Below, piece by piece: positions 2,277 to 21,247 of a stretch of 34,620 nucleotides of DNA. This DNA comes from a virus. Its lineage: Duplodnaviria > Heunggongvirae > Uroviricota > Caudoviricetes. A model generated the notes under the pieces. The model made no database searches. It was not told where the DNA came from and was given only the letters and a program-made list of their open reading frames with translations. Where the stretch lies: the IMG/VR virus record IMGVR_UViG_2529293040_000020; one strand, 5' to 3'. The translations under genes and the position numbers were made by a program. Position 1 is the stretch's first letter, and the number at the start of each line of letters is the position of its first letter.

Positions 2277-3157
2277 TGATGCCGAGATACGCTTCCAGTC
2301 TTCGCGGTCGTTGTCGATAACTTCTTTTTTGCCCAGCGATGGATGCTGCCGTCAATGTTTCCGGCATCCACATCACCAGGCCAGAGAGCGTAGGCCAGTT
2401 CGTCATCCAGTGTTTTCCATGTCTGCTTGTATTCGCGATGAGTGGCAGCAATGACCGGGCTGATTTTTCCTGTTGAATTTTCAGTGTTCTGTTGATTGGC
2501 TCTGGCGCGGGCGAGATCAACAACAGACGTGTATTTTCCGGTTTCCTTGCGTTCACCTTCGCGACGTTTTTTCCAGATGCGCATCTCTGCCTGAATTTCG
2601 GGCCATTTGGCACCAGGCTTACATTTATGCTTAACCCACCCGATGGCATGCAGCTTAAGCTCCGGATACATGGCGTTAACTTCTGGCATTTTCATCAACG
2701 CTTCAACGATATGTCCGTCGAATGTTGCCATGTCTTCCTGCAACAATTCCTGTGCGCTAATCACCATATCAACGGTGATGTTTTCACATGTGTCGAACTT
2801 AACCATGACAGCGTTCTGTACTTCAGGGGCCAGCTTGTCAAAAGTGACGTTCATCGGATCGGATTCAGTCTCAACCGGGACAAAAGAAGCAGAATCCTCA
2901 TCCCAGCGGTTTTCCTGCATATATTCAGCATCCCATGAATCGAGGGCAGGGCGGGGTATGCCAGGTTTATCCTCGCAGACAATAAATTTATAAGCGCAGT
3001 CCTGAGCAGCCGGATAATGTTCCAGGAATTGCCAGTGAAATTTTGCTCGAGCACGGCGTTCGTCGCCAGCTTCAATGGCTGTGGCTACAGCCACAGCGCC
3101 TTCTTCCCTTGTTGCCAGTTCGTCAGGAATAGCGGCGCAAATAAAGACTTTACTCAT
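2177..3157 (-). CDS. N-terminal part of the same large exonuclease-domain protein (frame-shifted relative to 687-2276)
   Basis: ORF with GAGG RBS 9 nt upstream of ATG at 3157 (MSKVFICAAIPDEL...); last ~35 codons are low-complexity junk while the alternative frame reads as protein (LGKKEVIDNDREDWKRISASMRKQPDALRY...). Confidence 0.5.
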   Translation of the reverse strand: MSKVFICAAIPDELATREEGAVAVATAIEAGDERRARAKFHWQFLEHYPAAQDCAYKFIVCEDKPGIPRPALDSWDAEYMQENRWDEDSASFVPVETESDPMNVTFDKLAPEVQNAVMVKFDTCENITVDMVISAQELLQEDMATFDGHIVEALMKMPEVNAMYPELKLHAIGWVKHKCKPGAKWPEIQAEMRIWKKRREGERKETGKYTSVVDLARARANQQNTENSTGKISPVIAATHREYKQTWKTLDDELAYALWPGDVDAGNIDGSIHRWAKKKLSTTTAKTGSVSRHQCANSLMPFATTARLFLALSVNVRSTFTKTLWH

Positions 3158-3348
3158 TTGTTTTAACCTCATGACAGATTTAAGGATGAACAAATCCCTG
3201 CCATTGCTGGCATATAAGAATGAAACCGGATATTTATTACGAAACTGTTTTAAAGACCTGCCGGGATTTCGATATTATCCTGGTGAATAACTTTATCGAC
3301 CGGGTAACAGTTACCGGGAATTTTCTGTTCGGTTGCTGCAGTCATACA

Positions 3349-3441
3349 CTACTGCATTGTCCTGTGAACACTGACTGCAATATCAACTGGCTCTCCGGAA
3401 ACAAGAAAAACTGTCAGAACAAGCACAAATGCTGAATTCAT
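3349..3441 (-). CDS. Small hydrophobic peptide (30 aa), translationally coupled to upstream gene
   Basis: MNSAFVLVLTVFLVSGEPVDIAVSVHRTMQ; ATGA start/stop overlap with the preceding ORF at 3438-3441; in-frame TAG followed by a further 31-codon open frame. Confidence 0.3.
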   Translation of the reverse strand: MNSAFVLVLTVFLVSGEPVDIAVSVHRTMQ

Positions 3442-3626
3442 TGTGCACATCCTTTTGGCATCAGACGTAAACGAGCCAGCATTGAAACAATGCATATTTT
3501 ATTTAATAGCTCCCGTTCTTGTTTTCTCTTGTTAATGGCATCTTCAGTAAATACTGGGTTACTGATAGTGACACCAATTTCAAAACAACCTTCAGACGTA
3601 TTAACGTTTGGTAATAACGTTTTCAT
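3438..3626 (-). CDS. Hypothetical small protein (62 aa)
   Basis: ORF starting MKTLLPNVNTSEGCFEIG... with GAGGA RBS about 8 nt upstream; AT-rich. Confidence 0.35.
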   Translation of the reverse strand: MKTLLPNVNTSEGCFEIGVTISNPVFTEDAINKRKQERELLNKICIVSMLARLRLMPKGCAQ

Positions 3627-4194
3627 TATCGCGTCCTCAACAATGAATTTTGTGATGCAGTGCCTGGTGCCTCCAGGTGACGTTAACCAGTTAACAATTA
3701 ACGCCGGATACAGAGAATCCACCCATAACACTGTTTTTGGTTTTAACTGTTCCGCGTGCGCTCAGCCGCATTCACCACATCACAAAATTCACTTTAAAAA
3801 GGGCGGCAGAGCAGTCACGGAGTAAAACTGATACCGCCAAACGTCACCAGAAAATTGATAACAGAGGGCGTTGCAGCGGGGTTGTCACTTAAGCGTATGG
3901 TCAACCTGACAACCCGGTGTCCTCAACGGGGGAAGGAATAACCCCGCCATACTTACCGCCGCGCCATTTCGCGGATTGCCACAACCGGAAGCGCACGGTC
4001 GACGAAAATTTAACGACAGGCTATCTATGAACCAGCTACCTCGCCGTGCGCTTTCGCGTTATGGTCTGACTTTTCAGGGAAATATCCTTTCAGTAAACTG
4101 TCAGTGCCGGATGCTCACCCGTGTCCGGCGCACGCACTCCACCTCATCCGTGGAGAACTCCTTAATTACCAACCTTAGCTTCGTTGGTTAGCTA

Positions 4195-4413
4195 TTAACG
4201 CGGGTATGTAATCATTCTGGCAATGCTTAATGTCGCTGCTTTTTCCAGATTAGTGATATCCTGCTCCAGAGCGGACAGATTTTCAGCCTGCTTAGCCCTG
4301 GCTTCATTGGCCCATTTCAGATCCTGCGCTGCATTAATTTTCTGGCGCATCCACTCATAAAGTTCATCATCGGTATAGTCTGGCGCGATGATGACGGGTT
4401 CTCGTTTCTGCAT
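4195..4413 (-). CDS. Hypothetical early-operon protein (72 aa)
   Basis: ORF MQKREPVIIAPDYTDDELYEWMRQ... with GAGGAA RBS 5 nt upstream. Confidence 0.45.
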   Translation of the reverse strand: MQKREPVIIAPDYTDDELYEWMRQKINAAQDLKWANEARAKQAENLSALEQDITNLEKAATLSIARMITYPR

Positions 4414-4443
4414 ACTGATTCCTCGCGGTGCTGTTTCGCTTAT

Positions 4444-4821
4444 CAGCCGTTAGATTTTGCCGAACTGGAAAGTGCCTGTTTAAATTCGCTGAAGCTGAGA
4501 GCTTCTTCGCCTTCGGCAAGACCTTCGAAGTATTCTTCGTAAGCCTTTTCCATGATTGTGTCGAAATCCATATCACCCACCTGAATTTCTTTCCAGCCAG
4601 CGACGCGCTCCAGATTCGGTTTTAAACGTTTTGCTTTTGGTATACGTCATCGCGGTGAACGTACCGTCCTGGTTGGGGAACACGCCACATACCAGAGATT
4701 CGCTGTTGCCAAGATCGATAGTATCCATGTTGACCTCATTTCCCCTTAACGCCGGGGTAGCGGAACTGTTTGCTGAGAACACCGTGCGGTGTCTTGATGG
4801 ATCGTAATTTAGTTTTCTCAT
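4444..4821 (-). CDS. Hypothetical early-operon protein, apparently frame-shifted within an A/T-rich run (about 4620-4640)
   Basis: N-terminal frame MRKLNYDPSRHR...MDTIDLGNSESLV... stops at 4573; downstream frame continues as acidic protein-like sequence ...MDFDTIMEKAYEEYFEGLAEGEEALSFSEFKQALSSSAKSNG. Confidence 0.4.
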
Positions 4822-4919
4822 GAATATTGATCAAGTGCTTTTGATGATAAAACTCAATATTTAATGCAAAATAAAGCCAATACATTGAAATGTAAGGCTT
4901 TAAAATTTGTGAAGGGGGG

Positions 4920-5327
4920 TTATTGATGTTTGTTACGTTTGCGAGCTTCTAGTAGCTCGGTGAATAGGCGATTAAAATTCTCAACGCGGGCACGGAGTTC
5001 GCTGATTTGTGCTTGCTGCTCTGATTTTGGAAGTGCGCGATACAATCGCAACATCTCCAACTCATCTTCCGATAAGTCTAAGGCGCTGTTGAGTGCAACT
5101 GGTGGATCTGGTGTTTTATCCTCGTCACCAAACAGTATCCAAGTTGGTGAACATTGCAATACCTCAGCCAGGCGATGCAAATTTTGCCCGCGCGGGGCTG
5201 TATGGTCGCTTTCCCATAGTGAAATTGATGAGCCAGATACGCCAGCAGCTTTGCTTAAATCGTTTTGACTTAAACCAACCTGTTTGCGTCTTTCTCTAAT
5301 TCGTTGACCTAAAGTTTTCTCGTTCAT
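4920..5327 (-). CDS. dicA: DicA-like HTH (XRE family) prophage repressor
   Basis: 135 aa; LGQRIRERRKQVGLSQNDL...LQCSPTWILFGDEDK closely resembles E. coli DicA; divergent from a Cro-like gene. Confidence 0.75.
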   Translation of the reverse strand: MNEKTLGQRIRERRKQVGLSQNDLSKAAGVSGSSISLWESDHTAPRGQNLHRLAEVLQCSPTWILFGDEDKTPDPPVALNSALDLSEDELEMLRLYRALPKSEQQAQISELRARVENFNRLFTELLEARKRNKHQ

Positions 5328-5377
5328 ATTTAGATATCTTAATAACCCTTGACTTGAGATTCCTTGAGTGATTACTA

Positions 5378-5391
5378 TTGAGAAAACTCAA
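5378..5391. promoter_or_regulatory. Inverted repeat TTGAG-N4-CTCAA in the dicA/dicC-like divergent intergenic region; candidate operator
   Basis: ttgagaaaactcaa, with further TTGAG-containing half-sites (ccttgacttgag, ccttgagtg) at 5348-5370. Confidence 0.3.
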
Positions 5392-5404
5392 CTTTGGAGG
5401 GGTG

Positions 5405-5632
5405 ATGTTTAAATCAGACGTAATTAATTTTTATGGGACGAAAGCCAAAGTAGCGAAAGCTGCTGGTGTTGATCCATCTGCTGTTTCTCAATGGGGGGAA
5501 CTGGTTCCTGAAGGTCGCGCGATGCGCCTGCAAGAGGCATCCGGCGGGGAACTTCAGTACGACCCCAAAGTTTATGACGAATATCGTAAGGCAAAGCGGG
5601 CGGGGCGGTTGAACAATGAAAATCACCCCTGA
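5405..5632 (+). CDS. dicC: DicC-like (Cro-type) regulator
   Basis: MFKSDVINFYGTKAKVAKAAGVDPSAVSQWGELVPEGRAMRLQEASGGELQYDPKVYDEYRKAKRAGRLNNEN resembles DicC; GGAGG RBS upstream of ATG 5405. Confidence 0.7.
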   Translation: MFKSDVINFYGTKAKVAKAAGVDPSAVSQWGELVPEGRAMRLQEASGGELQYDPKVYDEYRKAKRAGRLNNENHP

Positions 5633-6167
5633 ACAGGTTTGTGAGGCTCTGGATGCCTGGGTATGCCGACCAGGAATGACACAGGAGCAGGCGACGATAT
5701 TAATCACGGAAGCATTCTGGGCTCTGAAAGAACGCCCGAACATCGATGTTCAACGCGTCACGTTTAATGATGGCGAGGTTGATCAACGGGCGCTGTGCGT
5801 TAACCGGGTGAAGATATTCGAACGCTGGAAAGCTATCGACACCAGGGATAAGCGGAAAAAATTCACGGCGCTGATTCCGGCAATTATGGAGGCTATCCGA
5901 ATTAGTGATTTCAGGCTGTATCGTGAGATCAGTGATGGAAAAAGCATTACGTACATGATCGCCGGATTAAACAAAGAATATGGCGATGTGGTGGAGTCCG
6001 GGCTGCTTTTTGCGGATCCATCTGTTGTGGAACGTGAGACTGACGAGCTTATAGAAAAAGCTATTGCTTTCAAGCATGCGTATCGTCAGCAATATCAATA
6101 TTACTTTGCAGATAAACAAATGTCTGCCAGGGGTTCGTATGAGTATCGATGCACTACGATGGGCTAA
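5616..6167 (+). CDS. Hypothetical protein (183 aa) between cro-like and replication genes
   Basis: ORF tightly packed in operon (overlaps both neighbours); family not recognised. Confidence 0.45.
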   Translation: MKITPEQVCEALDAWVCRPGMTQEQATILITEAFWALKERPNIDVQRVTFNDGEVDQRALCVNRVKIFERWKAIDTRDKRKKFTALIPAIMEAIRISDFRLYREISDGKSITYMIAGLNKEYGDVVESGLLFADPSVVERETDELIEKAIAFKHAYRQQYQYYFADKQMSARGSYEYRCTTMG

Positions 6168-7179
6168 AAAGGTGAAAACCGGCAGTTCATCCAGTAAGTC
6201 TGTATTGACCTGGCTTGCTGATATGTGCGGTGCCGATTTGTGTGCATACCCGTCTGTATCTGCACTGGCAGAAGTAACGGAACTGAACAAAAAGACTGTG
6301 CAGGACAGCTTACGACACCTGATGGAGATTGGGTTAATTGTTGATACCGGTGAGAGAAAAGGCAGAACAAAGCAAATTGTGGTGTACCGACTTATCGGTG
6401 TAGAAGAAAGTGTTGCCGAGCCTGAATACACCCAAAAACGGGAGTCTTTAAAGGTGGGTAAAATCGGTGCTGTTAATAAAAACAGTACCGAAAATGGTTA
6501 TGTTTCAGCACAAAACAGACCCAAAAACGGAACTCTTAGCTGCATGGAAAATAACCAAAGACACCCAAATTTTCCATCAAAGACACCCAAAAACGGATCA
6601 CGGAACCCAAAGGAACCCAAAGAGCTAAACCCCACACATAACGCACGCGAGAGTGCTCCGACCAGTGAGCAGAAAGTTTTGTCGTTACAGGCTGCACCTC
6701 CTGTATTCCTGGATGGCCTGAGCGAACCCATCGAAAAATTTCCGATGACCGATAGCTGGTATTCGTCACGGGATTTTCGACGACGGGCTGCGTTGTGGGG
6801 GATGGCTTTGCCGGAGACAGAATTCACACCTGCTGAACTTGCCGCCTTCCGGGACTACTGGGCTGCTGAGGGGAAAGTGTTTACGCAGATTCAGTGGGAG
6901 CAGAAATTCGCCCGTCACGTAAATCACGTCAGGGCGCAGGTTAAACCAGTCAGCAAGGGGGTAAACCATGCAGCAGCACCAGGTGACACCGCATCACGGG
7001 CAGTTCAGGAAATTCGGGCAGCACGTGAGCAGTGGGAACGTGAAAACGGATTTATCAGCGACGGAAACGGCCTGGAAGCTGTGGGAACTCATGGGGGAGG
7101 TTTATTCGAACCGCTGGACCCAGAAGAACGGGGCCGCACCTTCGAAGCTCTGGATTGCACAGATTGGTGCGATGACTGA
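6139..7179 (+). CDS. Replication initiation protein, O-like: N-terminal winged-helix domain plus DnaT-like C-terminal region; 3' boundary uncertain
   Basis: MSIDALRWAKKVKTGSSSSKSVLTWLADMCGADLCAYPSVSALAEVTEL (HTH_36-like) and ...FTPAELAAFRDYWAAEGKVFTQIQWEQKFARHVNHV (DnaT-like); position upstream of P. Confidence 0.55.
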   Translation: MSIDALRWAKKVKTGSSSSKSVLTWLADMCGADLCAYPSVSALAEVTELNKKTVQDSLRHLMEIGLIVDTGERKGRTKQIVVYRLIGVEESVAEPEYTQKRESLKVGKIGAVNKNSTENGYVSAQNRPKNGTLSCMENNQRHPNFPSKTPKNGSRNPKEPKELNPTHNARESAPTSEQKVLSLQAAPPVFLDGLSEPIEKFPMTDSWYSSRDFRRRAALWGMALPETEFTPAELAAFRDYWAAEGKVFTQIQWEQKFARHVNHVRAQVKPVSKGVNHAAAPGDTASRAVQEIRAAREQWERENGFISDGNGLEAVGTHGGGLFEPLDPEERGRTFEALDCTDWCDD

Positions 7180-7633
7180 GCAGAAAATCCGACAGGTCTG
7201 CCGCCAGTGCATGGACCGCTGCCGGGCGGGTGAAACATGGCCTCCGGACCTGGCTGAGTTTGTGGCGCTGATTTCTGAAAGCGGAGCCAATCCATTCGGT
7301 CTGACGGTGGATGCCGTGATGGAGGAGTACCGTCGCTGGCGCAACGAGTCCTGGCGATACGACGGGAGCGATAAATACCCGTGGTCTCAGCCTGTGCTGT
7401 ATCACATTTGCCTCGAGATGCGTTCAAAGGGGATTGAGCGGCAGATGACCGAAGGGGAGTTAAAACGGCTTGCAGAACGGCAGCTGACGAAATGGGCAAA
7501 GCATGTTAGTAACGGCCTGAGTGTTCCGCCAGTCCGGCGACAACTGGCGGCACCCAAACGCCCGTCGGGGCCAACGCCAATTGAGTTGCTGAAACAGGAA
7601 TATGAACGCCGGAAAGCGGCTGGGCTTGTCTGA
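6968..7633 (+). CDS. P: Replication protein P-like (helicase loader); start uncertain
   Basis: C-terminal two thirds align by eye to lambda P (EFVALISE..., YPWSQPVLYHICLEMRS, KRLAERQLTKWAKHV); AAGGGGG RBS before ATG 6968. Confidence 0.6.
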   Translation: MQQHQVTPHHGQFRKFGQHVSSGNVKTDLSATETAWKLWELMGEVYSNRWTQKNGAAPSKLWIAQIGAMTEQKIRQVCRQCMDRCRAGETWPPDLAEFVALISESGANPFGLTVDAVMEEYRRWRNESWRYDGSDKYPWSQPVLYHICLEMRSKGIERQMTEGELKRLAERQLTKWAKHVSNGLSVPPVRRQLAAPKRPSGPTPIELLKQEYERRKAAGLV

Positions 7634-7665
7634 GTTGAGAAGTAATTTTTACCGGGAGGAAATTT

Positions 7666-7940
7666 ATGGAGACTGTTTTTGACGCACTGAAAGCAATGGG
7701 AAAAGCCACATCCATAGAACTTGCTGCGCGCGTGAAGAAGTGCTGAACGAACTATGGGAACTGAAAAAGGCTGGTTTTGTTGATAAAAGCGCGTACACCT
7801 GGCGTGTGGCTGATAACAACGTTCAGCAGGAACAGCCAGCGCAGGCAGAACTGCCGGAAGAAACCACCACAATGAGTGAAGTTATGCAGCGCATACTGGC
7901 ATTTTATCAGGGAAATGTTCGATATTTTAGACGTTACTAG
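7666..7940 (+). pseudogene. Small winged-helix-like protein gene split by a 1-nt frameshift at about 7738-7746
   Basis: [26 protein letters not shown] then -1 frame [27 protein letters not shown]...; restoring one G gives a continuous ...[19 protein letters not shown]... domain; GGAGG RBS before 7666. Confidence 0.4.
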
Positions 7941-8335
7941 ATTAAAGAGCATTAGTTCAGATGTGAATTGACATTGTGTGGCACAGGGTTGGGCTAGCGT
8001 GGGGGTTTGCTTTGTGTAAGAAACGGATGCTCTGCAAATTACTACTAATGCTTAATGTTAGTCTGATCTGCTCCCCGATGATTAATACACCGCTATGTTA
8101 GTAATGTCTGTAGATCGCTGTGTGTTGCATCCATCGGTTGACCCCACAGTCCAAACCAGACTGTCAGCTTTGATTCGATTCTATCTACTCAACCTGTCAG
8201 GTAATGTCTGAGCTAATACACAGAGTACGGCTATCGCGAACTTTAAGCTAGGTATCTGATACGCACCGTTCACTTGGTCGTACTTCTTGCACTGACTAGC
8301 TATCGTGCGCAGTTATTTATAGGTAATCTCCAGTG

Positions 8336-8341
8336 TATAAT
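8336..8341 (+). promoter_or_regulatory. Consensus -10 hexamer TATAAT upstream of the 8380 gene
   Basis: gtgTATAATtttcc about 38 nt upstream of the ATG; no convincing -35. Confidence 0.25.
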
Positions 8342-8379
8342 TTTCCAACTTATGGGAGATTGTAAAACAGGAGGAATAT

Positions 8380-9226
8380 ATGAGGAAAAAATCGTTTGGA
8401 CGTTGCCCGTTTGATTTCGACGAAGATGTAAAAAAAATAGCCGCGATAAATAAATATATCCATGCGAAATTTGAGAGGCATAAAAATAAAATAGATAACC
8501 TAAAGGGGGTGGAACAAAAATTGATGGTTTTACATTACTTTAATGTACTGAATGAACTTAGTAATCAGGCTATATTTTCTTTGAGTACCGGAGCCTTTTC
8601 AGCATCGGAAGTATTAACTAGAGTTATAATGGAACAGGCTGCCAATCAATTTTATATAGCAATTGATGATGGAAAAAATGCACAAGCATTACTCAAGGGT
8701 AGTAAGAAATTAGTTCATAGTAATGGGAAACGGTGGCTGGAGTGTTTAAAATCCAAAGAAATGACTAATCCAGCAGCAGATGAAAGGATTCGTATCGGAA
8801 AAGAGCTAACTGATATGTTTAATAGATTGTGGCCAAATACACCTGAATATCCTGGAACCAAAAAGCTTTTCGAAGTAATTGGCTGGGAAACACACTATCA
8901 TGCCTATTACGTCCCTCTTTGTGATTCAATACATACATTCTCTGATGATATGGCAAATATAGTATCTCTATATAATGCAATCCAAAGCGATAAAACTACT
9001 GCTATCGAACTCACTCTTAGCAGTTAAACAAGAAAATAAACGGCTGGCAATTTATAATGTCGTAATTGCTATTGGCCTGCGGTGTGAGGCCTTAGTAAAT
9101 GTATTTAACTCTTTAGGTTATCGAGATATTATAACTGAAATGGCGCCAACAATAGATGCAGTCAACCAGATTATAATTCGATATGATGATTTCGAACATT
9201 CCAGAATTTTTATTGTCAATAATTAA
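8380..9226 (+). CDS. Unknown AT-rich island protein, read as 215-aa and 83-aa pieces that probably form one protein of about 280 aa (frame change between 8975 and 9027)
   Basis: Strong RBS (AGGAGG) before ATG 8380; second piece has no own RBS and starts inside the first; low GC compared with phage genes. Confidence 0.4.
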
Positions 9227-9279
9227 TTGGCAGAATTCGTACATGCACAACAACTAGTTATAGTTGACCTATTTCGCTC

Positions 9280-9848
9280 TTGAGAGACAACCATACTCAA
9301 ATCTTCCACATTGCAGGAGATTTGAGTATGAATACGTCACCGAGGAACAAAGACAGTATCATAGGCCCAAAAAGACCACTTCAGATATCTCATATCTGGG
9401 GGCTCCAAATCCGGCTTGAACTGGAAGGTAAAACGCGTGATTTAGCTCGGTTTCAAGCAGAGCTACGGTGCTGCAACTGAAAAACTGGCAGTCCTATCCA
9501 ATTTGAGATAACCAAAGGGACAAGAGAAGCTGTTTCTGCATTGATAAAGCTTGGCAATTTACGCAGTAAAGACTACTTGTTCCGATCTCGGGTCGGTACT
9601 AACCAACACATATCAATCCTGCAATATAACCGAATCTTTCATAGGGGGGAGAAAAGCTTGGTCTCGAAGATTCGCTTTACAGCACACATTCCATGAGAAG
9701 AACAAAACCTTGCCTTGTCTGCAAGAAAACTAAGAATCTCCGGGTGATCCAACTTCCGTTGGGCCATAAGAAAACGGAAAGCACAGTTCGTTATCTGGGT
9801 ATAGAAGTTGATGATGCATTAGAGATCTCTGAATCGATCGAAGTCTAA
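9280..9848 (+). pseudogene. Decayed tyrosine recombinase (integrase catalytic domain remnant) with several frameshifts and stops
   Basis: Across three frames: KRPLQISHIWGLQIRLELEGKTRDLA, PIQFEITKGTREAVSALIKL...DYLFRSRVGTNQHISILQYNRIF, FTAH(S)MRRTKP...KKTKNLRVIQLPLGHKKTESTVRYLGIEVDDALEISESIEV*; H-x-x-R and the catalytic RY motif are present. Confidence 0.55.
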
Positions 9849-9854
9849 AGCTGT

Positions 9855-9920
9855 CAGGGCTGCAGCAGCAGCCCTGTGCCAAGAGCGTACCAATATATGT
9901 CTCAAAAAATTGGGCACAGG
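9855..9920. repeat. Two overlapping inverted repeats immediately 3' of the recombinase remnant
   Basis: cagggctgc-agca-gcagccctg (9855-9876) and cctgtgcc ... ggcacagg (9873-9880 / 9913-9920). Confidence 0.4.
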
Positions 9921-10260
9921 TCAATATCAATACCAACAACTCTGATTGTGCTCATGTGATTTACTCCTGTAGAAAACGCAGACAGTAAAAATATTTCACT
10001 GGCTGCTTCAGACAGGGCGTCCATCATATCATTACATAACAATAGCGGGGCACGATATCTAGACATGCAGCAACGATGGACATAGAATGAGTACAATCAA
10101 AAGCATGTTTAACTACTTTAATTTAAAAATCTTAGAATCTTAGGTGTAGAGTTCAATACTTAGTTACATACCCTTTTGAAAGCATCACAAATCATAACTA
10201 TGAGCCTGTTAAAGGCATAGGTATTCTTAATTAAGAGCATTTTAATGAGAGAAAAATAAA

Positions 10261-11633
10261 ATGAAAAGACTATATTATACCCATCATGATAGTCGAACCT
10301 TAAAACTTGCTATAGAAGGTGATGTTTCTGATAATGCGAATATTTTTACAGTAATTGTAGGTAAAAATGGCGTTGGAAAAAGCAGATTGTTATCTCAGAT
10401 TGCTAAAGACTGTATTCAAGATATTCATTTCTTGAAAACTTTTAATCCATTATTTGACAGAGAAATAACACCAAAGTTAATTGCCGTATCTACCAGCCCA
10501 TTCGATAAATTCCCTCCAGGGCGTAGGTCATTAAATCACCAAAGGAAAGAAAATAATTATCGCTATGTGGGTATGCGTGGAGAAGGCCCCTTCGGCGTAT
10601 CAAATGCCGTATCCCTTTTATCTTCAGCAGCGAGAGGTTGGCTAGAGAAACTTGCTTATTCAGAAAATCCTGCAAATTTACTCGATGTTTTTCATTCTAT
10701 TGATTTTGAGCCCCATATAGAGTTTGTATTTAAACCAACTTACAACGGACCGGACACTCCTGACTATAACTTCATTGGTGTATATTCAGATGAGATATTA
10801 ACGGAAGTTAAGGAGTTATATTTAAAATACAATATAAAAATTGACAGGAAGAATATTGAGAGTCTCTTAAAGTTAAACTCCGAATCACGTCATGATATTT
10901 ACGAAGCACTGGTTGAAATTAATCGATTTGAACCTGAACGTAGGGCTGTAACCTTGTCAGTCGATTTTACCAATGGTGAAACATTGGTTGGCTCGACTTA
11001 TGCGAATAATTATTTTTCTAGATCAATTCTTAAACTTATGAACGCTGGCTTCATGAGATTGATGGATATGCGACTCATAAAAAAAGCTATGGTCCCATGT
11101 CACTTAAACGTGCGAGCTCGGGAGAACAATGTTTATTAGTGATGTTGCTTGGAATTGCAGGGCATATAACTGATGGTTCTATAATACTAATTGATGAACC
11201 GGAAATAAGCTTGCATCCTCGATGGCAGGAAGAGTTTATCATTATGTTAACAAAAGCATTTTTAACTTACTCAGGTTGTCAATTCATAATTGCAACTCAT
11301 TCACCACAAATAATATCCAATTTGCCGAATAAAGGTTGTTATATAACATCTTTGTCGAAAAGTTATCTTTATAAAGCAAAATACTTTAGCAACCGGTCTG
11401 CAGACTATCAACTTGCGGAACTATTTGATGCCCCTGGCATTATGAATGAATACATTGCCAGATTAGCTTTCAATTTACTTTCAAAAGTTAAGACTGCTAA
11501 GTTAGTAACAGATGATAATTGGCGTGAATTAAAACAACTCCAGCTTCTCCTTGAAAACGTTAATAGTAATGACCCTATTAATGAACTCGTAAATTCCGTA
11601 TCTCAGGTGTGTGAAATTTATGCCAAAAATTAA
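10261..11633 (+). CDS. ABC/AAA15-type ATPase (Septu PtuA-like candidate), read in two frames with the shift at or near an A7 run (11079-11085)
   Basis: Walker A VIVGKNGVGKS in 10261-11139; ABC signature SSGEQ, Walker B IILIDEPE and H-loop IATHSP in 11097-11633; frames are open in parallel between about 11034 and 11139. Confidence 0.7.
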
Positions 11634-12255
11634 AAATCCAATTAGATTCAGCGCAGAGTCATTAGATATTATTGAGAAAAAATTGTCTTCTCCAGATTTT
11701 AAGCATACCAACTGGGGAGATGATGATTTGCAAGTTCTCCGTGCAGAAATTAGAAATCATTACAGAGAAGAACAAAAGCTAGAATGTGTATATTGTCATG
11801 AGCCTATTGGGGTAAGAGCTGCACAAGCTGCTCCTATAGAGCATATTGTGCCAAAATCTCAATATCTATGTTTTATTTTTGAACCTAAGAATCTATGTGT
11901 AGTATGTCCTGACTGCAATGAATTCAAAGGTAAAAATGAAGTGTTATTTGAACCCGTAATAAATGGGGGGCGGCGCAAAAACTATCCAACTGCATCTGCA
12001 TCATTTCGCATCGTTCATCCACATATAGATGATTATGAGATGCATATTATAAAAGCAAATCGTGTTTATGTGGACAAAACACCTAAAGGGCACTATACCA
12101 TTGGAATATGTAAACTAAATAGATTTTTTCATTATTTTGGGATGTGTGATGAATTTGTTAATGATGCAAAAATTGCTGAGGCAAATGAAAATTTTTTCAA
12201 AAAAGGTAGTATTACTACTAATGAATTATTGGATGATGACATTCATTTGATTTAA
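11611..12255 (+). CDS. HNH endonuclease (Septu PtuB-like candidate)
   Basis: CVYCHEPIG...IEHIVPKSQ...CVVCPDCNEFKG (Cys/His HNH pattern); start overlaps the ATPase stop, indicating a co-translated operon. Confidence 0.7.
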   Translation: MKFMPKIKNPIRFSAESLDIIEKKLSSPDFKHTNWGDDDLQVLRAEIRNHYREEQKLECVYCHEPIGVRAAQAAPIEHIVPKSQYLCFIFEPKNLCVVCPDCNEFKGKNEVLFEPVINGGRRKNYPTASASFRIVHPHIDDYEMHIIKANRVYVDKTPKGHYTIGICKLNRFFHYFGMCDEFVNDAKIAEANENFFKKGSITTNELLDDDIHLI

Positions 12256-12509
12256 CTATGAATTATTATATTGTAAAGTAATCAGGTAAGATATGTTAGA
12301 CAGTGAGACTATTGCCTTACAGAATTCATTATTCTTATGGATCGCCTTTCTGACTGATTTCATATTGGCGGGGTAACGGGAGTTAAGTAGAATGGCTGCG
12401 GGTGCTTGAGGCTATCTGTCTCAGGCATGAACACCAAAGGCAGATAGAGAAAAGCCCCAGTTAACATTACGCGTCCTGCAAGACGCTTAACATTAATCTG
12501 AGGCCAATT

Positions 12510-13595
12510 TCATGCTAGACACATGTAGGTTAGCCTCTTACGTGCCGGAAGGCAAGGAGATGTATGGGTCCACCACATATTGCAATTTTTATTCTCTTTT
12601 AAAATATATTCCACGGGCGTCATTAGTGCGAGCGCCTTGTGGGGCTTTTGCTGTTATACAGCACCAGATATTCCGCCAGCTTCTGGTTAAATAGCGCCAG
12701 ATCTTCAAAGAGTAAAATCTCATTAAATTCAATAAACTGCTCTCTTAACGTCCGGTTAAAACGTTCACAGATAGCGTTCATTTTGGCGTGTAGGGATAGG
12801 TCCAGAGGTGTTTGATAGCGGCTTCCTGCAGCGTTTTGTCGAAGTTTCCCAGGAACTCTTTTCCGCTATCTGTGATTATCTGGCTGATACCGACCGGGAA
12901 CAACCGGGCTGCGCGGCTGAAGAAGTGATTGACGATATCACTGTTGAGTGACGGCACAGCCAGCGCCAGCGCGTAATTGCTGCATTCGTCGATCATGGTG
13001 ATGACATAGCGACGCAGTTCGCCCATTCTGAGCTCAATGGCGTCCATCCCAATGAGCTCACCTGTCTTTACCGGGCGGTAGTGCTTTGGCCTGCGGGGTT
13101 TGGCAGACCGCTTTTTGACAAGCAGTGCCTTCCCCCGCGATCCCAGACGCACAGGTATCATCCGCATTTTATCATGTGCGGCAGCGATCATTCTGCCGAT
13201 GGTGGAAACACTCGGACAGGCCAGATAGCGCTGTTCGCACCAGGGCTTCAGGCGAACAAAAATCTGCTCTTTACCGAGGTTCGGCAGCTCTGTCCTGAGG
13301 CGTCGAATCTCTTTCAGCACATCGGGATGCCAGTGTTTTTTCGTCGCACCAGAGGTGCCTTACTGTGCGGGATTAGCCCCTCAGGTCCTTCCTTGTTCAG
13401 TAACTGACGCCACCAGTAAAGCGTGCGGCAGGACACGCCAAAGGCTTCAGAAGCTGCAGAAATACCGTGTTTATCCCAGAAGTGCAGAGCCTTCATTCTC
13501 ATTGTTGCTATATCAGCCATCACTGAAAGCCTCAACGCATAATCGGCCGTTTGGTAGTACTTAGGATAGCCAACCATCAGATGCTGCATTTGCAT
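12510..13595 (-). mobile_element. IS481-like DDE (rve) transposase gene with at least three frame disruptions; IS ends not defined
   Basis: N-terminal HTH (ALHFWDKHGISAASEAFGVSCRTLYWWRQLL), DDE core (KHYRPVKTGELIGMDAIE...ITDSGKEF...MNAICERFNRTLREQ), C-terminus PHKALALMTPVEYILKENK; shifts at T6 13336-13341, near 12785 and near 12600. Confidence 0.5.
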
Positions 13596-13666
13596 AGTGC
13601 AATCTCCCCTTACTTATCCGGAGGCAATTGCAATATCTCTGTGAACTTACACAGGAGAAGCAGGCT

Positions 13667-13822
13667 ATGAAGCAGCAAAAGGCGATGTTAATCGCCCTGA
13701 TCGTCATCTGTTTAACCGTCATAGTGACGACACTGGTAACGAGGAAAGACCTCTGCGAGGTACGAATCCGAACCGGCCAGACGGAGGCCGCTGTCTTCAC
13801 AGCTTACGAACCTGAGGAGTAA
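13667..13822 (+). CDS. hok: Hok/Gef family type I toxin (HokD/RelF-like)
   Basis: MKQQKAMLIALIVICLTVIVTTLVTRKDLCEVRIRTGQTEAAVFTAYEPEE is near-identical to HokD as recalled. Confidence 0.8.
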   Translation: MKQQKAMLIALIVICLTVIVTTLVTRKDLCEVRIRTGQTEAAVFTAYEPEE

Positions 13823-13892
13823 GAGACCCGGCGAGGGAGAAATCCCTCGCCACCTCTGATGTGGCAGGCATCCTCAACGCACCCGCACTTAA

Positions 13893-13916
13893 CCCGCTTC
13901 GGCGGGTTTTTGTTTT
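13893..13916 (+). terminator. Rho-independent terminator after hok
   Basis: cccgc-ttcg-gcggg followed by tttttgttttt. Confidence 0.5.
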
Positions 13917-14038
13917 TATTTTCAACGCGTTTGAAGTTCTGGACGGCGCCGGAATAGAATCAAAAATACTTAAGTAGCGCGCAGGGATAAGAGGGATGGT
14001 CCCTTAAAGGGGAGAGCTAATTATCCGGAAGGATTCTG

Positions 14039-14275
14039 ATGATGAACATCGAAGAACTGCGTAAAATTTTTTGTGAAGATGGCCTCTATGCTGTGTGCGT
14101 TGAAAATGGAAATCTTGTTAGTCATTACCGCATTATGTGTTTGCGAAAGAATGGGGCTGCGTTAATTAATTTTGTGGATGGTCGAGTGACAGACGGATTT
14201 ATCTTGCGCGAAGGTGAGTTTGTCACTTCATTACAGGCACTGAAAGAGATCGGAATAAAAGCAGGCTTTTCGTAA
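14039..14275 (+). CDS. Hypothetical small protein whose last codons are replaced by the IS66 insertion
   Basis: ORF MMNIEELRKIFCEDGLYAVCVENG...; stop codon is supplied by the IS left end; without the IS the frame would read ...KAGFSAFAEE*. Confidence 0.4.
   Translation: MMNIEELRKIFCEDGLYAVCVENGNLVSHYRIMCLRKNGAALINFVDGRVTDGFILREGEFVTSLQALKEIGIKAGFS
14264..14271. repeat. Left copy of the 8-bp target site duplication GGCTTTTC of the IS66-family element
   Basis: Identical 8-mer directly abuts both ends of the element. Confidence 0.75.
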
Positions 14276-14324
14276 CCGGCTCATTTAAACCGTCTGGTCT
14301 GTTTCCTCCGGCTCTACAAAAATA

Positions 14325-15001
14325 ATGTCCATCATTTTTAATGGACACTATCGTATGAAACACCGGACCTGGATCACTGAAGCTTTACGTCTTCACTTTG
14401 AAGAACATTTACCCCGGGTTGTGGCCGGGCGTCGCCTGGGTGTACCAAAATCAACAGTTTGTAGTATGTTCGTGCGCTTTCGGAGAGCTGGCCTTTCGTG
14501 GCCTTTGCCCGCAGGCATGTCGGAGCAGGAACTTGATGCCTGCCTTTACGGACAATTTTCCACGGTACCAGTCGTACGTCCTGAAAGCACCGTTATATCC
14601 GAAGCCCCCGTGGTAAAAAAACGTCCCCGGCGGCCCAACTTCCCTTATGAGTTTAAAATCGCCTTAGTGGAGCAGTCACTGCAGCCCGGAGCCTGTGTGG
14701 CGCAGATCGCCCGGGAAAACGGAATCAACGATAACCTGCTCTTCAACTGGCGCCATCAATACCGGAAAGGTGGCCTGCTGCCTTCCGGAAAAATATGCCG
14801 GCACTGCTTCCCGTGACGTTAACGCCGGAGCCGGATAATAAAATCCCGGCCCCCGCACAGGAACCAGAGCAGATAAATACACCGTCCGACAGTCTGTGTT
14901 GTGAGCTGGTTCTGCCGGCCGGAACTCTCAGGCTTAAAGGTAAACTGACGCCGGCGTTATTACAGACACTTATCCGCGAAATAAAAGGGAGCAGCCACTG
15001 A
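14325..15001 (+). CDS. tnpA: IS66 accessory protein TnpA (HTH), read in two frames with the change near 14795-14816
   Basis: KRPRRPNFPYEFKIALVEQSLQPGACVAQIARENGINDNLLFNWRHQYRKG (transposase_8-type HTH) then other frame PALLPVTLTPEP...; A7 run at 14613-14619. Confidence 0.5.
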
Positions 15002-15348
15002 TGATATCTCTCCCTGCAGGTTCGCGTATCTGGCTGGTTGCAGGTATCACCGATATGCGAAATGGCTTTAACGGCCTGGCATCAAAAGTTCAGAACGTCC
15101 TGAAGGATGACCCGTTCTCCGGACACCTGTTCATCTTCCGCGGACGCCGGGGTGACCAGATAAAAGTGTTGTGGGCTGACAGTGACGGACTGTGCCTCTT
15201 CACCAAACGCCTGGAGCGGGGCCGCTTCGTCTGGCCAGTCACCCGTGACGGCAAGGTGCACCTTACTCCGGCTCAGTTATCCATGCTTCTTGAAGGTATC
15301 AACTGGAAGCACCCGAAACGAACGGAACGCGCTGGAATCCGCATATAA
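15001..15348 (+). CDS. tnpB: IS66 Orf2-like protein TnpB
   Basis: MISLPAGSRIWLVAGITDMRNGFNGLASKVQNVLKDDPFSGHLFIFRGRRGDQIKVLWADSDGLCLFTKRLERGRFVWP is the characteristic IS66 TnpB sequence. Confidence 0.85.
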   Translation: MISLPAGSRIWLVAGITDMRNGFNGLASKVQNVLKDDPFSGHLFIFRGRRGDQIKVLWADSDGLCLFTKRLERGRFVWPVTRDGKVHLTPAQLSMLLEGINWKHPKRTERAGIRI

Positions 15349-15367
15349 CCCGTTGTAAAGTGAGGAT

Positions 15368-16939
15368 ATGGACACCTCACTTGCTCATGAGAACGCCCGC
15401 CTGCGGGCACTGTTGCAGACGCAACAGGACACCATCCGCCAGATGGCTGAATACAACCGCCTGCTCTCACAGCGGGTGGCGGCTTATGCTTCCGAAATCA
15501 ACCGGCTGAAGGCGCTGGTTGCGAAACTGCAACGTATGCAGTTCGGTAAAAGCTCAGAAAAACTTCGTGCAAAAACCGAACGGCAGATACAGGAAGCACA
15601 GGAGCGAATCAGCGCACTTCAGGAAGAAATGGCGGAAACGCTGGGTGAGCAATATGACCCGGTACTGCCATCCGCCCTGCGCCAGTCTTCAGCCCGTAAA
15701 CCGTTACCGGCCTCACTTCCCCGTGAAACCCGGGTTATCCGGCCGGAAGAGGAATGCTGTCCTGCCTGTGGTGGTGAACTCAGTTCTCTGGGATGTGATG
15801 TGTCAGAGCAACTGGAGCTTATCAGCAGCGCCTTTAAGGTTATCGAAACACAACGTCCGAAACAGGCCTGTTGCCGGTGCGACCATATCGTGCAGGCACC
15901 AGTACCTTCAAAACCCATTGCACGCAGTTATGCCGGAGCGGGGCTTCTGGCCCATGTTGTCACCGGGAAATATGCAGACCATCTGCCGTTATACCGCCAG
16001 TCAGAAATATACCGTCGTCAGGGCGTGGAGCTGAGCCGTGCCACACTGGGGCGCTGGACAGGTGCTGTTGCTGAACTGCTGGAGCCGCTGTATGACGTCC
16101 TGCGCCAGTATGTGCTGATGCCCGGTAAAGTCCATGCTGATGATATCCCCGTCCCGGTCCAGGAGCCGGGCAGCGGTAAAACCCGGACAGCCCGGCTGTG
16201 GGTCTACGTCCGTGATGACCGTAACGCCGGTTCACAGATGCCCCCGGAGGTCTGGTTCGCGTACAGTCCGGACCGGAAAGGTATCCATCCACAAAATCAC
16301 CTGGCCGGTTACAGCGGTGTGCTTCAGGCCGATGCTTACGGTGGTTACCGGGCGTTATACGAATCCGGCAGAATAACGGAAGCCGCGTGTATGGCTCATG
16401 CCCGGAGAAAAATCCACGATGTGCATGCAAGAGCGCCCACCTACATCACCACGGAAGCCCTGCAGCGTATCGGTGAACTGTATGCCATCGAGGCAGAGGT
16501 CCGGTGCTGTTCAGCAGAACAGCGTCTGGCGGCAAGAAAAGCCAGAGCCGCGCCACTGATGCAGTCACTGTATGACTGGATACAGCAACAGATGAAAACA
16601 CTGTCGCGTCACTCAGATACGGCAAAAGCGTTCGCATACCTGCTGAAACAGTGGGATGCACTGAACGTGTACTGCAGTAATGGCTGGGTGGAAATCGACA
16701 ACAACATCGCAGAGAACGCCTTACGGGGAGTGGCCGTAGGCCGGAAAAACTGGATGTTCGCGGGTTCCGACAGCGGTGGTGAACATGCGGCGGTGTTGTA
16801 CTCGCTGATCGGCACATGCCGTCTGAACAATGTGGAGCCAGAAAAGTGGCTGCGTTACGTCATTGAACATATCCAGGACTGGCCGGCAAACCGGGTACGC
16901 GATCTGTTGCCCTGGAAAGTTGATCTGAGCTCTCAGTAA
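15368..16939 (+). CDS. tnpC: IS66-family transposase TnpC
   Basis: 523 aa; N-terminal coiled coil, zinc finger CPACGGEL...CRCDH, DDE region typical of IS66 TnpC. Confidence 0.85.
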
Positions 16940-16969
16940 ATATCAATACGGTTCTGACGAGTCGCTTAC

Positions 16970-21074: not shown

Positions 21075-21150
21075 GGCCCTTTAGCTCAGTGGTGAGAGCG
21101 AGCGACTCATAATCGCCAGGTCGCTGGTTCAAATCCAGCAAGGGCCACCA
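21075..21150 (+). tRNA. ileZ: tRNA with CAU anticodon, Ile2 (lysidine) type, ileZ-like
   Basis: Cloverleaf by eye: acceptor ggccctt/aagggcc, D-arm gctc-agtggtga-gagc, anticodon loop ctCATaa, T-loop ttcaaat, 3' ACCA; close to E. coli ileX-type tRNA. Confidence 0.7.
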
Positions 21151-21159
21151 TCACATACC

Positions 21160-21229
21160 GCCATTAGCTCATCGGCAGAGAGCGTCAGCTTTCGAAACTG
21201 GCTGTGTGGGGCCCGGGTCCCCGATGGCA
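21160..21229 (+). tRNA. Degenerate tRNA-like element (possible anticodon UCG, non-canonical T-loop); may be a tRNA pseudogene
   Basis: Acceptor gccatta/cgatggc (one mismatch, one wobble), D-arm gctc-atcggcaga-gagc, loop tttcgaa; T-arm ggggcccgggtcccc lacks the TTCRA consensus. Confidence 0.3.
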
Positions 21230-21247
21230 ATCCATTATCTGCATTAT

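What the first reader, a model, noticed from the sequence alone, without database searches (positions are those of the whole stretch)
7950..12500. AT-rich accessory island with a decayed recombinase, inserted between replication gene P and the nin region
Seen: from about 7950 to 12500 the sequence is visibly more AT-rich than the flanking phage genes and contains a CTAG-rich non-coding stretch, an unknown gene of about 280 aa (8380-9226), a tyrosine recombinase broken over three frames (9280-9848), and the ATPase/HNH pair. Inference: a small integrative element or moron cassette that delivered the defence genes and then lost its integrase; the unknown 8380 gene may be a further component or an independent abortive-infection gene.
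Basis: partly seen in the sequence, partly recalled or inferred. Interest (0 to 1): 0.6.

Follow-up and report, generated by a model that had tools for sequence, protein, structure and literature searches.

The report
Frozen defence-gene cassette array in prophage
The AT-rich stretch is a real accessory island in an E. coli prophage, made of three separately mobile gene cassettes (an unknown DUF5677 gene, a dead mini-recombinase and a Septu anti-phage system) that seem to have been slotted in by a widespread, barely described integron-like recombinase/site system and are now stuck there.

Summary
Window 7871-12372 has 36.8% GC against about 48% in the flanks and holds 10 of the window's 15 CTAG sites. 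It sits between replication gene P and hok/sok in a Qin-type lambdoid prophage, 99.9% identical to E. coli E2348/69. Only 19 of 5,426 complete E. coli genomes carry it, and a near-identical prophage has the paa adhesin there instead.

Contents:
- a DUF5677 gene (all-alpha, weakly HEPN-like, function unknown);
- a pseudogene of a 200-aa, catalytic-domain-only tyrosine recombinase;
- a stand-alone Septu pair, PtuA and PtuB (PADLOC E 1.9e-165 and 1.1e-83).

The "integrative element that lost its integrase" reading is only partly right. No direct repeats bound the island. The recombinase belongs to a very common family: 905 of 5,426 E. coli genomes and more than 2,000 plasmids. That family is tied to two 24-bp sites, A and B, arranged as B-cargo-A-[recombinase or 18-nt linker]-B-cargo-A.

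Live phages (mEp460, Evi) and another Qin-like prophage carry intact B and A sites, and in one case an intact recombinase, at this same hotspot. Three related plasmids differ by deletions whose crossovers fall in the site centres.

In the window one outer site has decayed, the other is deleted, and the recombinase is dead, so the array is immobilised. In this copy ptuA and DUF5677 are also frameshifted.

The parts
7740..7940 (+). Chimeric ORF. The DUF1627 N-terminus runs up to 7870 and is fused to the last ~20 codons of a Ren-like (lygF) gene. The 7870/7871 joint is the left edge of sequence not shared with island-free relatives.
   Evidence: Homology to about 2,900 other genomes stops at query position 571-572, i.e. 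window 7870/7871. PHROG hits: residues 2-46 match phrog_630 and residues 44-62 match phrog_142, the Ren-like exclusion protein. Window 7872-8016 is 84% identical to the lygF 3' end of phage mEp460_ev081.
8005..8028 (+). Decayed B-type recombination site (GTTTGCTTTGTGTAAGAAACGGAT). It is the ortholog of the intact B site that follows the ren-like gene in phages mEp460_ev081 and Evi.
   Evidence: It matches the B consensus at 17 of 24 positions. It aligns positionally with the intact sites GTCCGCTTTGTGCCAAGAGCGGAC at L100:2643 and L101:2633.
8063..9265 (+). DUF5677 cassette: a 317-nt leader plus the gene at 8380-9226. The gene is 280 aa when intact. Here it is frameshifted at 9019 (+A) and about 9207 (-T).
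9266..9288 (+). Decayed A-type site that forms the left end of the recombinase unit (GACCTATTTCGCTCTTGAGAGAC).
   Evidence: Aligns with the left ends of 15 intact recombinase units, consensus GTCCGCTnTTCGCTCATAAGGGAC.
9292..9330 (+). Hairpin that pairs the Shine-Dalgarno sequence and start codon of the recombinase gene (CATACTCAAATCTTC N9 GGAGATTTGAGTATG).
   Evidence: Inverted repeat I2. The SD is paired as the 3' arm of the minimum-free-energy hairpin in 51 of the 56 distinct homologue leaders that have a recognisable SD, and the stem sequences differ between homologues.
9328..9848 (+). Pseudogene of a 200-aa, catalytic-domain-only tyrosine recombinase.
   Evidence: tblastn and alignment to intact homologues show an 82-nt deletion at about 9443, +1 at about 9480 and -1 at about 9646. 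The intact S88 homologue matches Pfam Phage_integrase at E 3.9e-17. RefSeq flags it as frameshifted with an internal stop.
9868..9890 (+). B-type site at the right end of the recombinase unit (GCAGCCCTGTGCCAAGAGCGTAC). Its left arm is part of the 3' hairpin at 9855-9876.
   Evidence: Alignment of the right ends of 15 units. Site scan. Coordinates.
9891..12326 (+). Septu cassette. It contains a promoter-like site at 10060-10088, ptuA at 10261-11633 (457 aa when intact; here an A8 tract reads A7 at 11072-11086, which splits the gene) and ptuB at 11620-12255 (HNH, intact).
   Evidence: PADLOC: PtuA E 1.9e-165, PtuB E 1.1e-83. Walker A is GKNGVGKS (K40), Walker B D312, and PtuB has H75 and N91. 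Window 9898-12326 is 89% identical at nucleotide level to L098, where homology also begins just after an intact B site. Promoter scan. No retron RNA or other Rfam family was found here.
12327..12372 (+). 3' remnant of a small ORF that lies between the A site and hok in phages mEp460 and Evi. The deletion that made this joint removed the end of the Septu cassette and the right-hand A site.
   Evidence: Window 12328-12560 is 96.6% identical to L100:4832-5064. In L100 and L101 an intact A site lies about 225-265 nt upstream of that point and has no counterpart in the window.
12400..12566 (+). The hok/sok leader, which is the right-hand conserved flank of the hotspot. It is interrupted at 12561 by an IS481-family element (12561-13652).
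   Evidence: Rfam sok, 112 bits. The IS is absent from 17 other carriers, and their homology overlaps by 6 bp across the insertion point.

Best explanation
The island is an immobilised array of three cassettes at a recombination hotspot. The hotspot lies between a ren-like gene, downstream of replication gene P, and hok/sok in Qin-type lambdoid prophages.

The array reads: B-site relic, DUF5677 cassette, A-site relic, recombinase (dead), B site, Septu ptuAB cassette, then a deleted A site.

The agent is a family of 200-aa, catalytic-domain-only tyrosine recombinases. They act on two 24-bp sites with the same inverted arms (GTCYGCT / AGCRGAC) and different centres (A: TTCGCTCA; B: TGTGCCAA). 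Cargo cassettes run from B to A. The recombinase gene, or an 18-nt linker, runs from A to B. AxA and BxB recombination therefore inserts, deletes or swaps cassettes, much as heterospecific lox sites do in engineered cassette exchange. This step is inferred from comparative sequence and has not been shown biochemically.

Later events fixed the array. The left B site accumulated substitutions at 7 of 24 positions. The right A site was lost in a deletion. The recombinase picked up an 82-nt deletion and two frameshifts.

Functionally, the payload that matters is a stand-alone Septu system: PtuA (ABC-type ATPase) plus PtuB (HNH nuclease). In studied E. coli homologues this pair stops phage by infection-triggered nuclease activity, including cleavage of tRNA-Tyr (PMC13096335). 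In this particular sequence ptuA is frameshifted, so Septu would be inactive if that base call is real.

DUF5677 is a second, independent cargo of unknown function. A defence or abortive-infection role is plausible but unproven.
For: Accessory status and hotspot:
- Searches show alternative cargo at the same position in related prophages.

Sites and grammar:
- About 60 A/B sites occur in 222 kb around enterobacterial recombinase genes, against 0 in shuffled sequence.
- Every called site is co-oriented with the recombinase gene, in the order B-cargo-A-[rec or linker]-B.

Natural recombination products:
- Plasmid p720632_72 has B-cargo-A-rec-B-cargo-A.
- pYJ4-a lacks exactly cargo plus rec, with the junction inside TGTGCCAA.
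- A Shigella plasmid lacks exactly rec plus the next cargo, with the junction inside TTCGCTC.

Same hotspot in other elements:
- Phages mEp460_ev081 and Evi have an intact B site right after the ren-like gene and an intact A site upstream of hok. Window 8005-8028 is the decayed ortholog of that B site.
- The Qin-like prophage of strain 035152 has B-c1-A.B-c2-A-rec(intact)-c3-A at this hotspot.
- K-12 Qin has B-flxA-A in the region between dicC and hokD.

Module independence:
- The DUF5677+rec module is about 90% identical to the one in the S88 P2-like prophage, and homology starts at that prophage's B site.
- The Septu cassette is 89% identical to L098, and homology starts just after an intact B site there.
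- An 85% identical Septu sits at a Klebsiella prophage end without the other modules.

Decay and Septu identity:
- Recombinase lesions.
- Septu assignment. Mechanism from PMC13096335.
Against: - No recombination assay exists. The site function is inferred from comparative genomics only.
- The plasmid deletion junctions involve only 7-8 nt of identity, so microhomology-mediated deletion cannot be formally excluded for any single case.
- Within the window itself only one good site (9868-9890) and two relics remain. The outermost island joints are not at sites, so the final placement of the whole array in this prophage lineage may owe as much to homologous or illegitimate recombination as to the recombinase.
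- The left arm of the recombinase unit's B site and the right arm of its A site are degenerate in all copies.
- DUF5677's role is unknown. One DUF5677 ORF tested in Enterococcus gave no protection (bioRxiv 10.1101/2025.10.07.681051).
- The frameshifts in ptuA and DUF5677 may be assembly errors.
Confidence: 0.72

Rival explanations
1. One small integrative element, carrying DUF5677, an integrase and the ATPase/HNH pair, inserted as a unit between P and the nin-like region by integrase-mediated att recombination, and then lost its integrase.
For: The whole 4.5 kb is uniformly AT-rich and CTAG-rich. It contains a tyrosine-recombinase pseudogene. All 19 carriers have the three modules together.
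Against: No direct repeats bound the island. The left joint is an in-ORF mosaic and the right joint is a deletion. Intact relatives of the recombinase are 200 aa with no arm-binding or core-binding domain. The modules occur separately elsewhere, each bounded by A/B sites. Recombinase-unit GC (0.447) differs from that of the two cargo genes (0.33-0.35).
Confidence: 0.08
2. Cargo at this hotspot is exchanged only by homologous recombination between the conserved flanks (the ren-like gene or P on one side, hok/sok on the other), as is usual for lambdoid mosaicism. On this view the A/B repeats are incidental, for example terminator-like palindromes, and the small recombinase is just another passenger.
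For: The flanks are conserved at 84-99% in many phages and prophages. The left joint at 7870/7871 is a mosaic joint that is not at a site. All carriers share one identical array, which fits spread by flank homology.
Against: The same cassettes appear in P2-like prophages, plasmids and chromosomal islands that lack these flanks, with homology breakpoints at the sites. Plasmid variants differ by deletions that end in site centres. Sites are strictly co-oriented with the recombinase gene and follow a fixed A/B alternation, which incidental palindromes would not do.
Confidence: 0.15
3. The small recombinase is a Fim-type DNA invertase, and the module is, or was, a phase-variation switch controlling DUF5677 or Septu expression.
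For: It is the same size as FimB/FimE, about 200 aa. There is a weak NCBIfam hit to 'tyrosine-type DNA invertase' (E 2.5e-4, 20.6 bits). An inverted repeat overlaps its start codon.
Against: The invertase model score is far below its cut-off of 222 bits. About 70 called sites in more than 20 loci are all in direct orientation, with no inverted pairs. The inverted repeat at the start codon covaries as an RNA hairpin that sequesters the SD, not as a pair of recombination sites.
Confidence: 0.03

Closest known systems
Septu type I defence system (PtuA ATPase + PtuB HNH nuclease; Doron et al. 2018; E. coli Septu studied in PMC13096335)
   Same: Two overlapping genes in the order ptuA-ptuB. Near full-length PADLOC matches (E 1.9e-165 and 1.1e-83). 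Walker A/B motifs and H-N-H residues are present, with PtuB H75 and N91 at the same numbering as the mutated residues in the published E. coli system. There is no reverse transcriptase and no retron RNA, so it is a stand-alone Septu.
   Different: In this window ptuA is split by a 1-nt loss in an A8 tract. Activity and target are untested for this allele. It is carried as a B-site-bounded cassette in a lambdoid hotspot.
Integrons (IntI tyrosine recombinase, attI/attC, cassette arrays)
   Same: A tyrosine recombinase, short imperfect-palindrome sites between single-gene or operon-sized cassettes, co-oriented arrays, defence genes as cargo, and the same cassettes shared between phages, plasmids and chromosomes.
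   Different: The recombinase is 200 aa with the catalytic domain only. NCBIfam integron-integrase hits are negligible (E 1.5e-3). There is no attI/Pc platform. Two heterospecific 24-bp sites (A, B) alternate in place of attC. The recombinase gene is itself a cassette inside the array. At least the Septu cassette carries its own promoter-like site.
Foreign DNA at the P2 'TO region' acquired by site-specific recombination (Nilsson, Karlsson & Haggard-Ljungquist 2004, Mol Biol Evol 21:1). Cited from title and memory; the paper was not readable here.
   Same: The DUF5677+recombinase module of the window is about 90% identical to cargo sitting between the tail-fibre assembly gene and the tail sheath gene of a P2-like prophage, flanked there by B and A sites.
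   Different: Here the same system is seen in a lambdoid ren-hok hotspot, in plasmids and in chromosomal islands, with an explicit A/B grammar. Whether the 2004 paper defined these sites could not be checked.
Variable anti-phage hotspots of P2/P4-like elements and other prophages (Rousset et al. 2022, PMC9122126)
   Same: A fixed position in a phage genome holds different defence or accessory systems in different isolates. Septu is among the reported cargo.
   Different: That work describes hotspots by flanking core genes and names no dedicated recombinase or site system. The term 'recombinase' does not occur in its main text.

Membership tests
Septu (PtuA/PtuB) | PtuA: ABC/AAA_15-AAA_21 ATPase with Walker A and B motifs | tested here: met
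   PADLOC PDLC00283, E 1.9e-165, covering residues 2-455 of 457. Pfam AAA_21 and AAA_15. GKNGVGKS at residue 34 and IILIDE with D312. These results were obtained on the intact E2348/69 allele.
Septu (PtuA/PtuB) | PtuB: HNH nuclease encoded immediately downstream | tested here: met
   PADLOC PDLC00325, E 1.1e-83. Pfam HNH, E 4.6e-5. H75 and N91 are present. ptuB overlaps ptuA by 14 nt.
Septu (PtuA/PtuB) | Both genes intact in the sequence under study | tested here: not met
   In the window ptuA is split into 10261-11139 and 11097-11633 because an A8 tract reads A7. ptuB is intact. This could be a sequencing error.
Septu (PtuA/PtuB) | Confers phage resistance | not testable with these tools
   Inferred only from homologues (PMC13096335).
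Phage-type integrase / integrative element | Integrase of about 350-400 aa with N-terminal DNA-binding domain(s) as well as the catalytic domain | tested here: not met
   Intact homologues are 194-200 aa. The Pfam Phage_integrase match covers residues 35-184 only, with nothing upstream.
Phage-type integrase / integrative element | Element bounded by direct att repeats at an otherwise intact target | tested here: not met
   No repeats at 7871 or 12373. The joints are a gene fusion and a deletion.
Integron | IntI-type integrase (about 320 aa, IntI-specific insertion) | tested here: not met
   NCBIfam integrase_gron and PRK15417 score E 1.5e-3 at about 18 bits, against cut-offs of 265 and 435 bits. 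Length is 200 aa.
Integron | Co-oriented cassettes separated by recombination sites | tested here: met
   The B-cargo-A grammar holds with all sites on the + strand relative to the recombinase gene, in more than 20 loci. The sites are not attC.
Fim-type tyrosine DNA invertases | Match to the invertase family model, and inverted repeats around an invertible segment | tested here: not met
   NF007371 scores 20.6 bits against a cut-off of 222. No inverted site pairs were found.
HEPN superfamily (for DUF5677) | Four-helix HEPN core | tested here: inconclusive
   [not shown]
HEPN superfamily (for DUF5677) | Conserved Rx4-6H catalytic motif | tested here: not met
   The invariant residues in a 40-sequence family alignment are R81, E85, F164, Y173 and H185. 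R81 and H185 are 104 residues apart, and no conserved Rx4-6H is present.

The most novel reading that the evidence does not exclude
The dead recombinase is a relic of a widespread and essentially uncharacterised integron-like cassette-exchange system. The system consists of a 200-aa, catalytic-domain-only tyrosine recombinase plus two heterospecific 24-bp sites, A and B, in the grammar B-cargo-A-[rec or linker]-B.

On this reading the system assembles and swaps defence and other accessory genes in several settings:
- prophage hotspots (lambdoid ren-hok and the P2 tail-fibre/sheath locus);
- plasmids;
- chromosomal islands.

It occurs across Enterobacterales: the recombinase unit is in 17% of complete E. 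coli genomes. Homologues at about 60% identity, each with a covarying SD-sequestering leader, are seen in many beta- and gamma-proteobacteria.

Beyond a 2004 comparative note on P2-like phages, it appears not to have been described or named.
Probability: 0.45. Interest if true: 0.8.

Novelty: new variant of a known kind. Interest (0 to 1): 0.6.

Why it matters
As a defence island in a prophage hotspot the locus is ordinary: Septu is known, and the region is already annotated in E2348/69. What is less ordinary is how the hotspot appears to be filled. A tiny tyrosine recombinase with two alternating site types would explain why the same defence or accessory cassettes turn up in lambdoid and P2-like prophages, IncF plasmids and chromosomal islands with breakpoints at the same 24-bp motifs.

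If the recombinase is confirmed to act on these sites, three things follow:
- a concrete, testable mechanism for defence-gene turnover at phage 'hotspots', which are currently defined only by flanking genes;
- a simple sequence handle (A/B sites) for mining new cargo such as DUF5677;
- a compact natural cassette-exchange recombinase with two orthogonal sites.

It also shows how such arrays become fixed through site decay and recombinase death.

Tried and rejected
- K-12 Qin 'intK' (ydfW/ydfX) as the same decayed recombinase: tblastn found no similarity, so this was rejected. K-12 does, however, carry A and B sites around flxA.
- Recombinase unit as a tiny IS with terminal inverted repeats. The apparent 16-nt 'TIRs' turned out to be the shared arms of the A and B sites. 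A search with joined flanks found no empty site for the unit alone among 58 plasmids, but it did find deletions at cassette level.
- Fim-type invertase or phase switch: rejected.
- Consistent protein partner for the recombinase. The Pfam scan of 116 neighbouring ORFs is heterogeneous: regulators, GNAT, IS91, ParD and others.
- The motif CAGACTGTCAG and the start-codon palindrome as second sites in the window: each occurs only once in the island.
- The 53% DUF5677 homologue (L008) has no recombinase neighbour and no A/B sites.
- Close Septu relatives on plasmids or in phages: none beyond one 8.5-kb E. coli record that is itself the island. The next best is 46% identical at protein level, in Xanthomonas.
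- Foldseek against PDB for DUF5677: nothing significant. The afdb50 library was unavailable.
- Literature. Searches for the recombinase accessions and for descriptions of such a cassette system found nothing relevant. Nilsson et al. 2004 is not held.

Full report
**Where the window comes from**

Window 1501-14271 is 99.9% identical to E. coli O127:H6 E2348/69 (NC_011601.1, about 1.27 Mb). The window has an extra IS66-family insertion at 14272-16969 and a scatter of single-base differences.

The surrounding genes (dicB, DicF, ydfA-C, a cI/cro-like pair, ydaT, a DnaT-like gene, P, then hokD, rem, DUF968, rusA, Q) identify a Qin-type lambdoid prophage.

**Checking the observation**

- The 4.5 kb between 7871 and 12372 has 36.8% GC, against about 48% on either side. 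It contains 10 of the window's 15 CTAG sites.
- The 8380-9226 gene is a DUF5677 protein.
- The 9328-9848 stretch is a decayed tyrosine recombinase. Against an intact homologue it has an 82-nt deletion that removes the first catalytic arginine region, plus a +1 and a -1 frameshift.
- The ATPase/HNH pair is PtuA/PtuB of Septu, with near full-length PADLOC matches (E 1.9e-165 and 1.1e-83), Walker A/B motifs and HNH residues.
- No reverse transcriptase or retron RNA accompanies the pair.

**Is it accessory?**

Yes. Only 19 of 5,426 complete E. coli genomes carry the island, while about 2,900 have the neighbouring P/DUF1627 region.

- ETEC1748 carries an ATPase/STAS set.
- K-12 Qin carries flxA and relBE.

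Homology to island-free relatives ends at 7870/7871 and resumes at about 12373.

**What the recombinase is**

It is not a phage integrase. Intact relatives are 194-200 aa and consist of the catalytic domain only.

- A single 90%-identity cluster has 3,385 members.
- The gene, with about 60 nt upstream and about 45 nt downstream, is conserved at 88-91% nucleotide identity in more than 2,000 plasmids of many genera, and the flanks differ each time.
- It is present in 905 of 5,426 E. coli genomes.
- Homologues of about 60% identity occur widely in gamma- and beta-proteobacteria.
- The neighbouring genes are heterogeneous.

**The sites**

The ends of the conserved unit are halves of two 24-bp site types. 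Both types share the arms GTCYGCT and AGCRGAC and differ in the centre:

- A: GTCCGCTTTTCGCTCATAGCGGAC
- B: GTCCGCTTTGTGCCAAGAGCGGAC

About 60 such sites occur in 222 kb around enterobacterial recombinase genes, and none in shuffled sequence. All are co-oriented with the recombinase gene. They follow one grammar: B-cargo-A, then either the recombinase gene or an 18-nt linker, then B-cargo-A.

Three related IncFIB plasmids look like recombination products of one another:

- p720632_72 has B-cargo-A-rec-B-cargo-A.
- pYJ4-a lacks exactly cargo plus rec, with the junction inside the B centre.
- A Shigella plasmid lacks exactly rec plus the next cargo, with the junction inside the A centre.

**The same system at this hotspot**

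- Phages mEp460_ev081 and Evi have an intact B site immediately after a Ren-like ('lygF') gene and an intact A site upstream of hok, with different cargo in between.
- Window 7872-8016 is the 3' end of such a ren-like gene.
- Window 8005-8028 is the ortholog of their B site, with 7 of 24 positions changed.
- The Qin-like prophage of strain 035152 has, at this hotspot, B-c1-A.B-c2-A-rec(intact)-c3-A followed by hokD.
- K-12 Qin has B-flxA-A.

**The window's modules seen elsewhere**

- The DUF5677+recombinase module is about 90% identical to cargo in the tail-fibre/sheath hotspot of the S88 P2-like prophage. There the homology begins right at a B site, and the cargo ends at an A site.
- The Septu cassette (9898-12326) is 89% identical to one in a chromosomal defence island (L098). 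There too the homology starts just after an intact B site.
- An 85% identical copy sits at the end of a Klebsiella variicola prophage. Neither of these two copies has DUF5677 or the recombinase nearby.
- At the right end the window lacks the tail of the Septu cassette, the A site and most of a small ORF present in mEp460 and Evi. This is a deletion joint at 12326/12327.

**Interpretation**

The island reads as: B-relic (8005-8028), DUF5677 cassette, A-relic (9266-9288), dead recombinase, B (9868-9890), Septu cassette, then a deleted A site.

It is best explained as a cassette array built by this recombinase/site system at a pre-existing hotspot and then frozen by site decay and loss of the recombinase. 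The catalytic step is inferred, because no assay exists.

Homologous recombination between conserved flanks probably also moved the whole array between prophages. The left edge at 7870/7871 is a DUF1627::ren-like gene fusion, not a site.

**Function of the cargo**

Septu is a known two-gene defence. In a studied E. coli system both the ATPase and the HNH motifs are required, and infection triggers cleavage of tRNA-Tyr (PMC13096335).

DUF5677 remains unknown:

- The model is confident (pLDDT 93) and all alpha-helical.
- The family's invariant residues (R81, E85, F164, Y173, H185) do not form the HEPN Rx4-6H motif.
- There is no PADLOC hit.
- A preprint found DUF5677 enriched next to serine recombinases in Bacillota, but the ORF it tested was not among the five that gave protection.

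**Prior knowledge**

The island is annotated in RefSeq. Septu and prophage defence hotspots are established (PMC9122126).

The title of Nilsson et al. [quoted passage not shown] The paper could not be read here.

Searches of the held literature found no description of the A/B grammar, of the 200-aa recombinase family, or of its role at lambdoid hotspots or on plasmids.

**Verdict**

This is a real accessory island carrying known defence cargo. It is assembled by what looks like a neglected integron-like cassette system. Interest is moderate for the island itself, and higher if the system proves to be undescribed and active.

Noticed in passing
window 12561-13652 (and 12400-12566): An IS481-family element is inserted at the end of the hok/sok leader (Rfam sok, 112 bits). 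This separates the leader from the hokD coding region. The IS is present in E2348/69 but absent from 17 other carriers of the island. In this window its transposase ORF also carries homopolymer indels.
   Followed up: partly
window 14272-16969: An IS66-family element (tnpA, tnpB and transposase) sits directly after rem. It is absent from the NC_011601.1 reference at this position, so the window comes from a variant or another assembly of the strain.
   Followed up: partly
[not shown]
   Followed up: partly
window 9292-9330; homologue leaders in L014-L093: The recombinase leader forms a hairpin that buries the Shine-Dalgarno sequence and start codon. The SD is paired in 51 of the 56 distinct homologue leaders that have a recognisable SD. 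Stem sequences differ between homologues (AUCUCC/GGAGAU, GACUCC/GGAGUC, GGCUCCUUU/AGAGGAGCC and others), and the mean z-score is -2.2. This resembles the read-through protection seen in IS transposase genes.
   Followed up: yes
L102 (E. coli DA33135) and L103 (E. coli 035152): Intact recombinase units are flanked by other cargo. In L102 the cargo is an RT-like gene and a dynamin-family pair. In L103 three unknown cassettes lie in the same ren-hok hotspot. This suggests the A/B sites could be used to mine new defence candidates.
   Followed up: partly
L013 (E. coli K-12 Qin) 5982-6005 and 6973-6996: K-12's own Qin prophage has a B site and an A site bracketing flxA, in the region between dicC and hokD. 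The B site falls inside the annotated ydfV ORF.
   Followed up: partly
window 7740-7940: This annotated 'DUF1627 pseudogene' is actually an in-frame chimera. The DUF1627 N-terminus is fused to the last ~20 residues of a Ren-like exclusion protein, marking an old mosaic joint between two lambdoid lineages.
   Followed up: yes
L098 9060-9110 and L096 9040-9090: Intact Septu cassettes end in a different palindrome (AAGCGTACA N18 TGTACGCTT) whose arms resemble the A/B arms in reversed order. Its role, whether terminator or a third site type, is unknown. The window has lost it.
   Followed up: no
window 3801-3852, 21075-21324, 22006-22195: DicF sRNA, two tRNA genes (Met-CAT, which RefSeq annotates as Ile, and Arg-TCT) and an STnc100 sRNA lie elsewhere in the prophage. 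They are ordinary for this phage type.
   Followed up: no
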